From the NCBI RefSeq assembly GCF_006345805.1, contig NW_021827383.1, positions 1 to 10,490 on the forward strand: a stretch of DNA of 10,490 nt, read 5' to 3'. This document shows positions 3,607 through 10,490 of this stretch, piece after piece. The notes below the pieces were generated by a model, which searched no databases, had not been told where the DNA came from, and worked only from the letters and a program-made list of their open reading frames with translations. How positions within the stretch are numbered: position 1 is the stretch's first letter; the number at the start of each line of letters is the position of its first letter. Both the position numbers and the translations under genes were made by a program. Source of the DNA: Octopus sinensis. Its lineage: Eukaryota.

Positions 3607-3999
3607 TCTTTATATATAAAAGTCAAGTTGTGTGTCTGTCTCCTACGATTTAGATTCCTAACTACTCCCCCATTTTGCGGTGCAGTTTAAACCAAAACCG
3701 GGTATCTTATAGTCGTGATTCATATCAAGCCCTCTGGTATTAGCGCGCGTCTACGATGAGTCTACAATGATTAAAAATTACCATCATTTTTTCCTATTTT
3801 AATGCATTTTTTTCGGTATTATATAAGGGAAGTAACTCTCTAAAAATGTCTACGATGAGTGAACGATTTAAAAAAAAATTACCATAATTTTTTTTCCATT
3901 TTAATGCATTTTTTTGCTATTTTTTGGCTATAACTCTCTAAAAATGCTTATATAGTTATTTCCCTTACAAACCCGAGCAACGCCGGGCGATACTGCTAG
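3607..3999 (+). mobile_element. Non-autonomous Helitron, copy 1 (2 internal ~99-bp units)
   Basis: A|TCTTTATATATAAAAG 5' end (an extra TCTATATATA at 3597-3606), subterminal hairpin CCCGAGCAACGCCGGG (3972-3987), 3' CTAG|T (3996-4000), no TSD. Highly similar to 6537-7119. Confidence 0.85.
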
Positions 4000-4076
4000 T
4001 ATGTATATATAGAGGGATAGATAGCTACATGGATATACCGTTCTTTAAGAATGATTGTGTTGACAGTAACTTCGCT

Positions 4077-5633: not shown

Positions 5634-6282
<649 letters not shown>

Positions 6283-6536: not shown

Positions 6537-7119
6537 TCTTTCTATATAAAAGAGAAGTTGTGTGTCTGTCTCCGACTATTTAGATTCCTAACTACTCCCA
6601 CATTTTGCGGTGCAGTTTAACCAAAACCGGGTATCTTATATCGAGCCCTTTTGGGTATTAGTGCGCGTCTACGATGAATCTACGATTAAAAAAAAAAATT
6701 ACCATCATTTTTTTCCATTTTAATGCATTTTTTTCGCTATTATATAAGGGAAGTAACTCTCTAAAAATGTCTACGATGAGTCAACGATTTAAAAAAAAAT
6801 TACTATAATTTTTTCCATTTTAATGCATTTTTTCGTTATTATATAAGGGAAGTAACTCTCTAAAAATGTCTACGATGAGTCAACGATTAAAAAAAAAATT
6901 ACTATAATTTTTTCCATTTTAATGCTTTTCTTCTCTATTATATAAGGGAAGTAACTGTCTAAAAATGTCTACGATGAGTCAACGATTTAAAAAAAAAATT
7001 ACCATCATTTTTTTCCATTTTTAATGCATGTTTTTGCTATTTTTTGGCCATAACTCTCTAAAAATGCTTATATAGTTATTTCCCTTACAAACCCGAGCAA
7101 CGCCGGGCGATACTGCTAG
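6537..7119 (+). mobile_element. Non-autonomous Helitron, copy 2 (4 internal ~99-bp units)
   Basis: A|TCTTTCTATATAAAAG 5' end; same CCCGAGCAACGCCGGG hairpin and CTAG|T 3' end (7116-7120) as copy 1. Confidence 0.85.
6667..7067 (+). repeat. ~99-bp minisatellite inside the Helitron
   Basis: Units start with gtctacgatga at 6667, 6769, 6868 and 6967 (3749 and 3848 in copy 1). Confidence 0.9.
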
Positions 7120-7411
7120 TTGAGTATAAATCGAAGCGAATTGTAGGATAAATATTTGTTTTTCAACTCCTATTCATGATATTATTTCATATTAAAGCAT
7201 AATTATATTATAATGTTGATAAATTCAATTTACAATATGTCATTCTCTATTTTCTTTTAATCTCTCTTTATTGAAAATATACCATTTTGATTTGTGACAA
7301 TTTTTTTCTCTGCAATATTTGGTGTTTAACTGAAGAACCAGTGGGAAATTGAATGTTTTCCATCCCTTAAAAGGGACCTGTTTTTCTTTGGATTGAATAT
7401 TATTTTGTATT

Positions 7412-7443
<32 letters not shown>

Positions 7444-7532
7444 TGTATGTATGTATGTATGTATGTATATATGCATGTATGTATTTATGTATATATGCAT
7501 GTTTATATGCTGCATATATATATATATATATA
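7412..7532. repeat. (TATG)n/(TA)n microsatellite
   Basis: Direct reading. Confidence 0.9.
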
Positions 7533-7758
7533 CTTTATTTTAAGCAGCAGAAAATTCAACAAAATCTGTTCTCTGAGTTTCTCGTTGCCGTTCATCAGAC
7601 AGTTTTTGCTAGCAAAAACTGTCTGATGAACGGCAACGAGAAACTCAGAGAAACAGATTTTGTGAATTTTCTGCTGCTTAAAATAAAGCATATTACTCTA
7701 CCACTGGTATTTGAGTACTCTTTTTTCAACCTTGTTTCACATTATGTGTTTACTCCGG
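7533..7758 (+). mobile_element. PLE-terminus-like insertion in (TA)n: 156-bp spacerless palindrome (7533-7688) plus a unique tail, with mirrored hammerhead-like cores
   Basis: Two 78-bp arms centred on gct|agc (7610/7611), differing by two 1-nt indels. Right arm reads ctgt-CTGATGA-a-cg-gcaa-cg-a-GAAAC-tc-a-gag-aa-acag; flanked by TA tracts. Confidence 0.65.
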
Positions 7759-7839
7759 TATATATATATATATTAATATATCAATAATTCATTAATATTG
7801 AAAACAAGTGGATGTATTCCACCGAAACTAGGTAAATAA

Positions 7840-7977
7840 AACCTTCGAACAGAGACGATCAGTGGCGTCACCTGCTGGGTCGACTACGCTACATTGACAA
7901 AGGGCAAATACCCTGAAACGCGTCTGTAGCTGTCTGACTAGCAGTGTGAAGCGGCTGACCTCCCTTGTTCGAAGGTT
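7840..7977 (+). ncRNA. Type I minimal hammerhead ribozyme fold (core mutated) at the tip of a long rod-like hairpin
   Basis: Stem I gctaca (7888-7893) / tgtagc (7925-7930); core TTGACAA (cf. CUGANGA); stem II aggg-caaata-ccct; GAAAC-GC-GTC with palindromic ACGCGT. Outer arms aaccttcgaaca (7840-7851) / tgttcgaaggtt (7966-7977) are a perfect match. Confidence 0.7.
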
Positions 7978-8154
7978 ATAATGGACACAGTTTGTGTGTC
8001 AAATAGCTATCTTAAGGCGATGGCCTCATGTAGCTAATCAGCGACAGCTTTTAGTCTTATATCTATAAGACTGCCATATTAATATGGCGATAACAATTAA
8101 TTTCCAGTAACGCTGCCGTAATCTCTTTTAGAGAGACTTAATAATTTTAATATT

Positions 8155-8163
8155 TCTCTCTCC

Positions 8164-8639: not shown

Positions 8640-9060
8640 ATTTGGTGTTTACTCATTCCGGACTGTGAGGGGTTGACATGGCATATGGTTTTCGTTAGAA
8701 CTAGTGTTAGTTTGAGGGTTATAAAGATTTGTGTGGGCAGATTTCATAAACCTATTGATGGAAGCTAAGACCGAACCTAAATTCGGAGTAGTTCAGTACG
8801 ACAATTTCGCAGAAGATTTATTAAAAATAGGATAATATTTATGATTTTTAGGAAAAAATTTTCTTCAGGCGCAGGAGTGTCTGTGTGGTAAGTAGCTTGC
8901 TTACCAACCACATGGTTCTGGGTTCAGTCCCACTGCGTGGCACCTTGGGCAAGTGTCTTCTACTATAGCCTCGGGCCGACCAAAGCCTTGTGAGTGGATT
9001 TGATAGACGGAAACTGAAAGAAGCCCGTCGTATATATGTATATATATATATATATATAAA

Positions 9061-9094
<34 letters not shown>

Positions 9095-9840
9095 CTGTGT
9101 TTGTCCCCCTAGCATTGCTTGACAACCGATGGATGATGTGTTTATGTCCCCGTTACTTAGCGGTTCGGCAAAAGAGACCGATAGAATAAGCATTCGGGGC
9201 TTACAAAAGAATAAGTCCCGGGGTCGAGTTGCTCGATTAAAGGCGGTGCTCCAGCATGGCCGCAGTAAAATGACTGAAACAAGTAAAAGAGTAAAAGAGT
9301 ATCTTAAAAAAACAATTTGGGTAAAACTTTGACCTGAAGAGAGAAGGGCGAAGCAAACCATTTAATTTCGCACTTTCTAGATTTTGATTATTTGGTCTGA
9401 TTAGATTGGTTGGGGATATAGGGTGTATATTTATGTGAATTCCTAAATGCCATGTTATTAATTCGGGCCTCATTCATACAGTGTTTTTTAATCGGGTTAC
9501 CTAAATCGGGGTTCGTATTACAAGATTGTGAGCCAGTTCCATTCAAGATATTTGCAATTTTGCTTTTAAGAATTGTATCAGGGATATCAAATATTTCTGT
9601 CTTAAAACCAATTAACTTTAAGGCTTGGTTATAATATGGAGAATGAGTGTTAAATATCCCTTCGTCCACCATTAAGTTTGAGATTCTTATTGAGATAGCC
9701 GTTACCATACCATCGGGGGTTGATCTACGATAATCCCTGGGAGGGATTAATTTCATTTTCTCTGTGGATAGTGGAGATTAGTTTTATGATTAAGTGTGGG
9801 GTCTAAAAAATTAGGTATCTTAAGATTATTTCAAACAGAA
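8640..9840 (-). pseudogene. Decayed Penelope-like retroelement ORF fragment (C-terminal RT/thumb and linker toward GIY-YIG), with stops, frameshifts and a SINE insertion
   Basis: Hand translation gives NLKIPNFLDPTLNHKTNLHYPQRK (NFLD at 9812-9801), ISIRISNLMVDEGIFNTHSPYYNQALKLIGF (ORF 9388-9756), SRKCEIKWFASPFSLQVK (WFASPFS 9360-9340) and, beyond the SINE, FPKNHKYYPIFNKSSAKLSY*TTPNLGSVLASINR (from ~8855). These match, in order, the PLE motifs NFLDVTL, RISxLSxxExIF..Y..AL..G, RxIIWFNPPFS and HFPxxHxLxKIFNxxxxKxSYSxxPN as I recall them. Confidence 0.85.
8867..9301 (+). mobile_element. tRNA-derived CORE-like SINE (family C), full length, inserted in the PLE
   Basis: A-box-like TGTCTGTGTGG (8878-8888), B-box GGTTCAGTCCC (8921-8931), CACCTTGGGCAAGTG (8941-8955, resembles the CORE/MIR core), internal (TA)n(TG)n, (GTAAAAGA)n tail. 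Confidence 0.9.
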
Positions 9841-9848
9841 TATTTAAA

Positions 9849-10269
9849 TTACTCTCTCTTTCACTCTTTTACTTGGTTCAGTCATTTGACTGCGGCCATG
9901 CTGGAGCACCGCCTTTAGTCGAACAAATCGACCCTGGGACTTAATTTTTTTGTAAGCCCAGTACTTATTCTATCGGTTTCTTTTGCCGAACCGCTAAGTG
10001 ACGGCGACATAAACACACCAGCATCGGTTGTCAAGCAATGCTAGGGGGACAAACATAGACACACAAACATACACGCACACACACACATATATATATACAT
10101 ATATACGACGGGCTTCTTTCAGTTTCCGTCTACCAACTTCACTCACAAGGCTTTGGTTGGCCCGAGGCTATAGTTGAAGACACTTGCCCAAGGTGCCACG
10201 CAGTGGGACTGAACTCGGAACCATGTGGTTGGTAAGCAAGCTACTTACCACACAGCCACTCCTATGCCT
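9849..10269 (-). mobile_element. tRNA-derived CORE-like SINE (family C), full length
   Basis: Reverse complement of 8867-9301 along its length; tail abuts the 5' side of the PLE fragment. Confidence 0.9.
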
Positions 10270-10490
10270 GTATGCATATATACGACGGGCTTCTTTCAGT
10301 TTCCGTCTACCAAATTCACTCACAAGGCTTTGGTCGGCCCGAGGCTATAGTAGATGACACTTGCCCAAGGTGCCACGCAGTGGGACTGAACCCAGAACCA
10401 TGTGGTTGGTAAGCAAGCTACTTACCACATAGCCCCTCCTATGCCTATATACATATATACGACGGACTTCTTTCAGTTTCCGTCTACCAA
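10106..10490 (-). repeat. 177-bp tandem array of the SINE-C head (tRNA + CORE part), running off the window
   Basis: cgacgg(g/a)cttctttcagtttccgtctaccaa starts at 10106, 10283 and 10460. Confidence 0.9.

What the first reader, a model, noticed from the sequence alone, without database searches (positions are those of the whole stretch)
7840..7977. Hammerhead ribozyme fold at the tip of a ~140-nt rod-like hairpin (retrozyme/Penelope-type)
Seen: complete type I topology - gctaca, TTGACAA, aggg-caaata-ccct, GAAAC-GC-GTC, tgtagc - with the predicted cleavage site after C7924. Stem I continues outward imperfectly for ~50 bp (ctgctgggtcgac/gtctgactagcag, tcagtggcgtcac/gtgaagcggctga, aaccttcgaaca/tgttcgaaggtt). 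Known: PLEs and retrozymes carry minimal hammerheads with a palindromic short stem III (here ACGCGT) that cleave as dimers. Inference: CTGACGA decayed to TTGACAA (C>T plus a CpG-type G>A), so this copy is probably dead. The long rod with many G-U and mismatched pairs suggests a selected RNA structure rather than a recent DNA inversion, possibly an undescribed ribozyme-bearing element family.
Basis: partly seen in the sequence, partly recalled or inferred. Interest (0 to 1): 0.8.

Follow-up and report, generated by a model that had tools for sequence, protein, structure and literature searches.

The report
Hammerhead retrozyme with swapped core pair
This is one copy of a 364-base repeat found in thousands of places in this animal genome; its odd hammerhead-ribozyme core is the family norm rather than decay, and its insertions carry the footprint of Penelope-type retrotransposons, so it likely spreads as a self-cutting RNA that borrows their enzyme.

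Summary
The fold is real (z -6.7), but the 'dead copy' reading is wrong. TTGACAA is U3-U4-G5-A6-N7-A8-A9: the core's 3-8 Watson-Crick pair swapped from C-G to U-A, a known natural variant. It stands in 2,312 of 2,413 motif matches in the genome, with N7 free. The hammerhead is the canonical type (6-bp helix I, 4-bp helix II, tertiary-loop letters kept), with helix III swapped among four palindromes (96 of 100 listed). It lies in a 364-nt non-coding unit (window ~7785-8157) that forms arrays of up to 10 units: a non-LTR retrozyme. Insertions run into (TA)n and end at two fixed points 56 nt apart; 34 of 35 classifiable inverted insertions use one of each. This is the Penelope 'tail' and is insertion-level evidence that Penelope machinery moves retrozymes. 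A young Penelope-like element here also has a U3-A8 hammerhead, but no partner was identified by homology. A sister family has amplified all four 3/8 states, two of them non-Watson-Crick, so cleavage may not be strictly required. Cleavage, expression and circles are untested.

The parts
7785..8157 (+). One unit (364-nt period, 41% GC, non-coding) of the retrozyme repeat; 5' edge blurred between ~7783 and ~7795 against a (TA)n tract
   Evidence: 98% to L002; 4 substitutions from 7795 to 8157
7840..7977 (+). Rod-like hairpin that presents the hammerhead at its tip
7885..7887 (+). Loop-1 5' letters UAC (with U7931 on the 3' side), as in the Rfam HH9 consensus; predicted tertiary contact to loop 2
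7888..7930 (+). Type I hammerhead: helix I 7888-7893 with 7925-7930
   Evidence: (3 of 6 pairs change on both sides)
7894..7900 (+). Core U3-U4-G5-A6-C7-A8-A9; U3-A8 replaces C3-G8
7901..7914 (+). Helix II (4 bp) with loop CAAAUA
7915..7924 (+). GAAA core, palindromic helix III ACGCGU (7918-7923), GUC with predicted cleavage after C7924
8073..8088 (+). GCCA-N8-TGGC hairpin 13 nt before the inner end, shared with sister families; candidate recognition signal for the reverse transcriptase (inferred)
8102..8157 (+). Penelope-type 'tail' between the two fixed 3' ends of the family (inner ~8101, outer ~8157-8160)
7759..7782 (.). (TA)n-like tract on the 5' side; (CT)n then (TA)n follow on the 3' side from 8158

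Best explanation
This is a single intact unit of a 364-nt non-coding repeat with a canonical type I hammerhead fold whose 3-8 core pair is U-A across the family, and it likely spreads as a non-LTR retrozyme: transcripts of tandem arrays would self-cleave as dimers, likely circularise, and be copied back into (TA)n DNA by a Penelope-like element's enzyme. Shown by sequence: the unit, its arrays (up to 10 full units), compensatory changes in helices I and II, four interchangeable helix III palindromes, two fixed 3' ends 56 nt apart, inverted arms that pair one inner with one outer end, (TA)n targets. Inferred steps: (1) read-through transcription of arrays; (2) two hammerheads pair through the helix III palindrome (a lone copy has only 1-2 bp there) and cut after C17 to free unit-length RNA; (3) ligation to a circle; (4) a Penelope RT-endonuclease nicks AT-rich DNA, starts reverse transcription at two internal sites downstream of the GCCA hairpin, one for each arm, and runs more than once round the template, which gives partial tandems and inverted arms. 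This window's copy is a lone unit and would lack a partner in cis.
For: Core: 646 + 1666 U3-A8 matches of 713 + 1700 when positions 3 and 8 are relaxed to Y and R; N7 is C, T or A. U3-A8 is a described natural covariation (PMC3088659 passage; PMC4209133). Helix III: of the first 100 of 646 matches listed, hand count GC 21, AT 34, TA 35, CG 6, non-palindromic 4. Covariation on 30 hand-picked natural copies: 88.6% of cells paired, 12 of 52 pairs change on both sides (shuffles 7.2, 4 of 500 reach it), slid controls 33-40% paired; helix I 3 of 6, helix II 2 of 4 pairs. 27 of 30 copies fold a rod of 20 or more outer pairs alone. A natural monomer folded as a circle: -114.9 against -83.0 +/- 5.9 (60 shuffles). 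Architecture: 84 distinct complete insertions; 47 two-armed; 34 inner+outer, 1 inner+inner, 0 outer+outer, 12 with an unclassified end (p 1e-9 against even odds); sister family G 13 of 14. The tail marks two internal RT start sites in a Penelope-like element in vitro (PMC11167929, parts 1-2 of 4) and is often at one end only (PMC8557442 passage). Arms run through the cleavage site: 3 of 130 internal 5' ends lie within 6 nt of it, 4.6 expected, so the template was longer than a cleaved linear monomer. A young Penelope-like family with 781-codon open frames (RT E 1e-6, GIY-YIG E 3e-6) is present, ends in (TA)n, has a ~36-nt tail and a minimal hammerhead with U3-A8.
Against: No cleavage, circle or enzyme was observed. 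Sister family G has amplified U3.G8 (49 of the first 100 of 443 matches) and C3.A8 (6 of 100) cores beside C3-G8 (27) and U3-A8 (18) (hand count), so a Watson-Crick 3-8 pair is not required for spread there. Ribozyme-dead mutants did not impair insertion in vitro for the lizard element (PMC11167929), and 8 of 9 Xenopus retrozyme dimers did not cleave (10.64898/2026.07.22.740005). No Penelope element among 60 GIY-YIG stretches fetched (of 147 matches, 5029 candidates) shares DNA sequence or the GCCA hairpin with the unit, and tail lengths differ (36 against 56). RNAalifold's consensus did not recover the long outer rod, and helix II is in the lowest-energy fold of only 17 of 30 copies. The covariation counts do not correct for relatedness and use a structure drawn from the window copy. 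The minus strand folds almost as well (-112.9). Units in long arrays differ by 0-9 (L153) or up to 21 (L170) letters, with hints of a 4-unit duplication in L153, so DNA-level expansion or multimeric templates contribute; an uncleaved multimer would serve as template as well as a circle.
Confidence: 0.72

Rival explanations
1. A non-autonomous Penelope-mobilised repeat whose hammerhead is slow, vestigial or dispensable: uncleaved multimeric transcripts are the template, and the fold is kept for structure or protein binding.
For: Family G amplified both non-Watson-Crick 3/8 states as clades; cleavage not needed for insertion in vitro (PMC11167929); no pile-up of ends at the cleavage site; 8 of 9 Xenopus dimers inactive.
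Against: In the window's own family 96% of motif matches keep the pair; helix III changed between four palindromes, N7 is free, loop letters of the tertiary contact are kept across families only 60-75% alike: the pattern expected of selection on catalysis.
Confidence: 0.18
2. A solo terminal repeat (pLTR) of an autonomous Penelope-like element, not a stand-alone retrozyme.
For: Tail, inverted arms and (TA)n targets are those of Penelope elements; Xenopus retrozymes resemble pLTRs.
Against: Arrays of up to 10 units join head to tail with no coding body; longest ATG frame in a natural dimer is 18 codons; two Penelope proteins found only 3 short hits in the 114 loci searched; the Penelope elements sampled carry minimal, not canonical, hammerheads and share no sequence.
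Confidence: 0.06
3. A satellite-like DNA repeat spread and multiplied mainly by DNA recombination after a few retrotranspositions.
For: Some long arrays show higher-order similarity (L153 units 3/7, 4/8, 2/6).
Against: Dispersal over all large contigs, fixed 3' ends, variable 5' truncation and inverted arms in most insertions are retrotransposition marks.
Confidence: 0.03
4. One reading: a canonical CTGACGA hammerhead killed in this copy by two point mutations.
For: CpG-type G-to-A change could have been the first step historically: a C3.A8 clade lies between C3-G8 and U3-A8 in family G (weak support 92/76).
Against: 28 of 30 nearest loci share the window's core; CTGANGA with this helix II occurs 3 times in the genome, all in another family.
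Confidence: 0.01

Closest known systems
Metazoan non-LTR retrozymes (Cervera and de la Pena 2020, PMC7229834; coral, mussel 350-390 bp, axolotl 330/350 bp)
   Same: Small non-coding tandem units under 50% GC, one canonical type I hammerhead per unit, weak palindromic helix III as in the axolotl family that cleaves as dimers, highly self-paired predicted circle.
   Different: U3-A8 core (invisible to CUGANGA descriptors and missed by Rfam here); mapped Penelope tail, inverted arms and (TA)n targeting, which the parts read (2-3 of 6 plus term search: 'inverted' 0, 'octopus' 0) do not report; cleavage and circles untested here.
U3-A8 minimal hammerheads of Schistosoma mansoni Cercyon PLEs (Cervera and de la Pena 2014, PMC4209133)
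   Same: Same core covariation, about 1,300 hits there; palindromic helix III.
   Different: Those are minimal motifs (helix II 7-8 bp, helix I 4-5 bp), mostly single and tied to PLE terminal repeats; this one has 6-bp and 4-bp helices with tertiary loops in a non-coding tandem unit.
Penelope-like elements, Poseidon of Anolis (Frangieh et al. 2024, PMC11167929) and Neptune/Naiad insertion patterns (Craig et al. 2021, PMC8557442)
   Same: Two fixed internal RT start sites bounding a tail, partial tandems, inverted 5'-truncated arm, AT-rich or (TA)n targets.
   Different: No ORF; tail 56 nt rather than 30-40; canonical rather than minimal hammerhead.
Vertebrate retrozymes as non-autonomous PLE derivatives (Li, Clavereau, Pollet 2026 preprint, 10.64898/2026.07.22.740005)
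   Same: Same proposed partnership.
   Different: That case rests on co-occurrence and pLTR homology (parts 1-3 of 5 read; supplements closed); here homology to a PLE was not found but the insertion footprint was.

Membership tests
Canonical type I hammerhead | Helix I 6 bp, helix II 4 bp, short helix III, open end on helix I | tested here: met
Canonical type I hammerhead | Literal core C3-U-G-A-N-G8-A | tested here: not met
   U3 and A8; no Rfam hit
Canonical type I hammerhead | Watson-Crick pair between positions 3 and 8; GAAA; UH cleavage site | tested here: met
   U3-A8, GAAA 7915-7918, GUC 7922-7924; variant described in PMC3088659, PMC4209133
Canonical type I hammerhead | Loop 1 / loop 2 tertiary-contact letters | tested here: met
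   UAC..U and CAAAUA against UAC..U and CAAAAA in the HH9 consensus; sequence match only
Canonical type I hammerhead | Self-cleavage | not testable with these tools
   needs bench assay
Non-LTR retrozyme | 150-450-bp non-coding units in dispersed tandems, one type I hammerhead each, GC under 50% | tested here: met
   364 nt, 41% GC, longest ATG frame 18 codons, arrays up to 10 units
Non-LTR retrozyme | Highly self-paired predicted circle | tested here: met
   62% paired, z -5.4; prediction only
Non-LTR retrozyme | Accumulation as linear and circular monomer RNA | not testable with these tools
   only assembled contigs of runs not on record as RNA were available
Non-LTR retrozyme | Target-site duplication longer than 4 bp when present | tested here: inconclusive
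   ends run into (TA)n
PLE minimal hammerhead | Helix II 7-8 bp, helix I 4-5 bp, extra base after A9 | tested here: not met
Autonomous Penelope-like element | RT plus GIY-YIG frame between terminal repeats | tested here: not met
Penelope-type insertion | Tail at one end, partial tandem, inverted truncated arm, AT-rich target | tested here: met
Penelope-type insertion | Terminal sequence shared with an autonomous partner | tested here: inconclusive
   none among 60 GIY-YIG stretches of 147 matches

The most novel reading that the evidence does not exclude
This genome holds a radiation of Penelope-driven retrozymes that records a catalytic base pair being rewritten step by step (C3-G8, C3.A8, U3-A8, U3.G8, each amplified as its own subfamily), and whose shared GCCA hairpin plus tail is the cis signal by which circular ribozyme RNAs recruit Penelope reverse transcriptase. 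That would be the first insertion-level proof of how animal retrozymes move and a natural allelic series to test whether cleavage matters for their spread.
Probability: 0.4. Interest if true: 0.75.

Novelty: new variant of a known kind. Interest (0 to 1): 0.57.

Why it matters
Which enzyme moves animal retrozymes has been proposed but not shown; here thousands of young insertions carry the Penelope tail and give two exact start sites and a candidate signal to test in an existing in vitro system. More than 2,300 hammerheads in one genome escape Rfam and CUGANGA descriptors because of one swapped pair, so censuses of animal ribozymes likely undercount. The four natural 3/8 states in a sister family allow a direct test of whether self-cleavage is needed for amplification.

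Tried and rejected
Rfam scans: no hammerhead on the window copy; a C3-G8 relative reaches HH9 at E 1.5e-4, below the gathering score. Expression: no RNA holder listed. Contigs of runs guessed to be RNA cover the unit in two organism labels (A, B), one 379-nt contig spanning a whole unit, but neighbouring repeats are covered as well and contigs cannot show strand, ends or circles, so this is not used as evidence; the letter table did lead to the larger 5-nt-loop subfamily. Search for the autonomous partner: GIY-YIG search, 60 stretches compared by blastn and hairpin motif: no shared sequence beyond chance-level hits and inserted retrozyme copies; a protein search with a second Penelope family was not completed, so that family was sampled only through the GIY-YIG list. 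G.U against A.C asymmetry as strand test: 78 against 45 cells, 18 against 13 columns, too weak to use. Higher-order periodicity as a sign of multimeric circles: suggestive in L153, not clear in L170, L174, L154. Kinetic papers on 3/8 exchanges (PMC1986816, PMC2271363) were not held, so the activity of U3.G8 and C3.A8 cores is not documented here. Earlier scan findings: none. Literature searches for a prior description (term searches in PMC13282606, PMC6962438, PMC7229834) found no retrozyme described for cephalopods; the squid paper only counts 235 Rfam hammerhead hits; supplements, Repbase and Dfam were not seen and may hold this repeat under another name.

Full report
Observation. The hammerhead topology and the rod are in the sequence as described. 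The 161-nt stretch folds at -65 kcal/mol against -41.1 +/- 3.6 for 200 dinucleotide shuffles, z -6.74. Rfam gives no hammerhead match on 7820-8000 at E <= 10. The window is microsatellite-rich animal DNA, G000:C3854:1-10490 of a 2.72-Gb genome; an octopus-type host is my recalled impression from neighbouring repeats, not tested.

The element. Window 7783-8157 is one copy of an interspersed repeat: 3302 first-look candidates, 40 scored, best copies 93-98% identical. Tandem copies give a period of 364 nt, 41% GC, longest ATG frame 18 codons in a natural dimer. Arrays reach 10 full units (L153). The window copy is a lone unit, 98% identical to L002.

The core is not decayed. Of the 30 best loci, 28 read TTGACAA, 1 TTGATAA, 1 CTGACAA. 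Anchored on this helix II, 335 matches allow C/T at 3 and A/G at 8; of the first 100 listed, 96 are TTGAYAA, 1 CTGACAA, 3 CTGAGGA, and those 3 are the only CTGANGA in the genome and belong to another family. With free helix II letters: 646 U3-A8 of 713 (6-nt loop) and 1666 of 1700 (5-nt loop), together 2,312 of 2,413; a few of these belong to sister family G (3 of the first 100). Positions 3 and 8 form a Watson-Crick pair that covaries to U3-A8 in nature and was shown active in vitro (PMC3088659, passage); the variant also occurs in Schistosoma PLE minimal hammerheads (PMC4209133, parts 1-2 of 4).

Signs of selection on a hammerhead. N7 varies (C, T, A). The two letters inside helix III are GC 21, AT 34, TA 35, CG 6, other 4 in the first 100 of 646 matches (hand count): every subfamily keeps a palindrome, which would give a 6-bp intermolecular duplex (-4.6 to -8.3 kcal/mol). 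Loop letters UAC..U and CAAAUA match the HH9 consensus UAC..U and CAAAAA, so this is the canonical type, not the PLE minimal type. On 30 hand-picked natural copies, 88.6% of cells pair and 12 of 52 pairs change on both sides (shuffled 7.2; 4 of 500), slid controls pair 33-40%; helix I 3 of 6 pairs, helix II 2 of 4. Caveats: relatedness is not corrected, the structure came from the window copy, and the 3-8 column was imposed by the search patterns. RNAalifold recovered helix II, four pairs of helix I and the short extension but not the outer rod; folded singly, 27 of 30 copies form the rod, 26 helix I, 17 helix II.

Insertion footprint. Free 3' ends fall at two points, window-equivalent 8157 and about 8101, and mostly run into (TA)n or (TAA)n. 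Among 84 distinct complete insertions, 47 have two arms pointing outwards; 34 pair an inner with an outer end, 1 inner with inner, none outer with outer, 12 have an unclassified end; 36 are single-orientation, 1 complex. The sample is biased to copies that hold the hammerhead. In a lizard Poseidon element the tail is the stretch between two internal RT start sites, the enzyme nicks AT-rich DNA on both strands, and ribozyme mutants still insert in vitro (PMC11167929, parts 1-2 of 4); tails are often at one end only and Naiad elements favour (TA)n (PMC8557442, passages). Internal 5' ends of 130 arms are spread round the unit, 3 within 6 nt of the cleavage site against 4.6 expected, so the template was a circle or an uncleaved multimer.

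Partner. The genome has young Penelope-like elements: 147 GIY-YIG matches, including several 780-781-codon frames with RT, a cysteine linker and GIY-YIG (Neptune-like by the linker, label from PMC8557442). That family ends in (TA)n, shows a ~36-nt tail and carries a minimal hammerhead that also has U3-A8. It shares no DNA similarity with the unit, nor does any of the 60 stretches fetched. The partner is therefore inferred by footprint, not identified.

Sister families. Family H (C3-G8, older, 70-83% between copies) shares helix II and a recognisably similar hairpin and tail (alignment score 77 against a shuffled maximum of 53). Family G (~355-360 nt) has the same two-end architecture, 13 of 14 two-armed insertions among 25. 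A GCCA-N8-TGGC hairpin occurs in 105 of 116 loci of the window's family, 38 of 38 G, 9 of 15 H, 6 of 40 PLE stretches (other repeats) and 0 of 2 further relatives, 13-16 nt before the inner end. Against a strict reading: of the first 100 of 443 family G matches, 49 are U3.G8, 27 C3-G8, 18 U3-A8, 6 C3.A8 (hand count), and a tree of 40 rows with positions 3, 7 and 8 masked orders them C3-G8, C3.A8, U3-A8, U3.G8 (unrooted; U3.G8 clade 100/100, C3.A8 92/76, one long chimeric row). Non-Watson-Crick cores have thus amplified; their activity is unknown to me because the kinetic papers were not held.

Mechanism. Most likely (0.72) a non-LTR retrozyme: array transcripts cleave as dimers, monomers circularise, and a Penelope enzyme primes at two internal sites and copies more than one unit into (TA)n. 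Only the DNA anatomy is shown. The main rival (0.18) is the same mobilisation with a dispensable ribozyme. Expression could not be judged.

Novelty. Retrozymes, the U3-A8 variant and the PLE tail are each known. Their combination, the insertion-level link to Penelope machinery and the four-state series were not found in my searches (term searches); PMC7229834 (parts 2-3 of 6 and passages) calls PLEs a strong candidate, and the 2026 preprint (parts 1-3 of 5) argues from co-occurrence and homology. Supplements and repeat databases were not seen. Verdict: new variant of a known kind, interest 0.57.

Noticed in passing
L075, L155, L158, L175-L179, L184-L213: Sister retrozyme family G with all four 3/8 core states amplified as subfamilies; the U3.G8 clade has an 8-nt helix III palindrome.
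   Followed up: partly
L143-L149, L151, L152 (e.g. G000:C6:12729300-12736300): Young Penelope-like family, ~3.9 kb, 781-codon frame, (TA)n target, ~36-nt tail, minimal hammerhead with U3-A8.
   Followed up: partly
L031-L033, L051-L062; L150:6020; L180, L181: Further hammerhead repeat families with C3-G8 cores; H and the L150 family share the GCCA hairpin and tail, L180 is 62-70% like the window's unit.
   Followed up: partly
window 7528-7773: Near-perfect palindrome (arms 7528-7610 and 7611-7693, 90%) with a conserved extension to ~7773, also seen in L117, L131, L142 flanks; MITE-like high-copy repeat.
   Followed up: no
window 3615-4000 and 6550-7120: Two copies of a repeat with an internal 99-bp tandem unit (4 units at 6667-7066), both between (TA)-rich flanks.
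   Followed up: no
window 5700-6200, 8866-9300, 9850-10490: SINE-like repeats, the 177-bp part tandemly repeated at 10092-10490; one copy inverted.
   Followed up: no
L033 minus strand, ~287-codon frame: Frame resembling a PIF1/Helitron helicase fragment (recalled resemblance).
   Followed up: no
L153 units 2-4 and 6-8; L170: Higher-order similarity inside long arrays (period 4; alternating helix II letter in L170), which could reflect multimeric templates or DNA duplication.
   Followed up: partly
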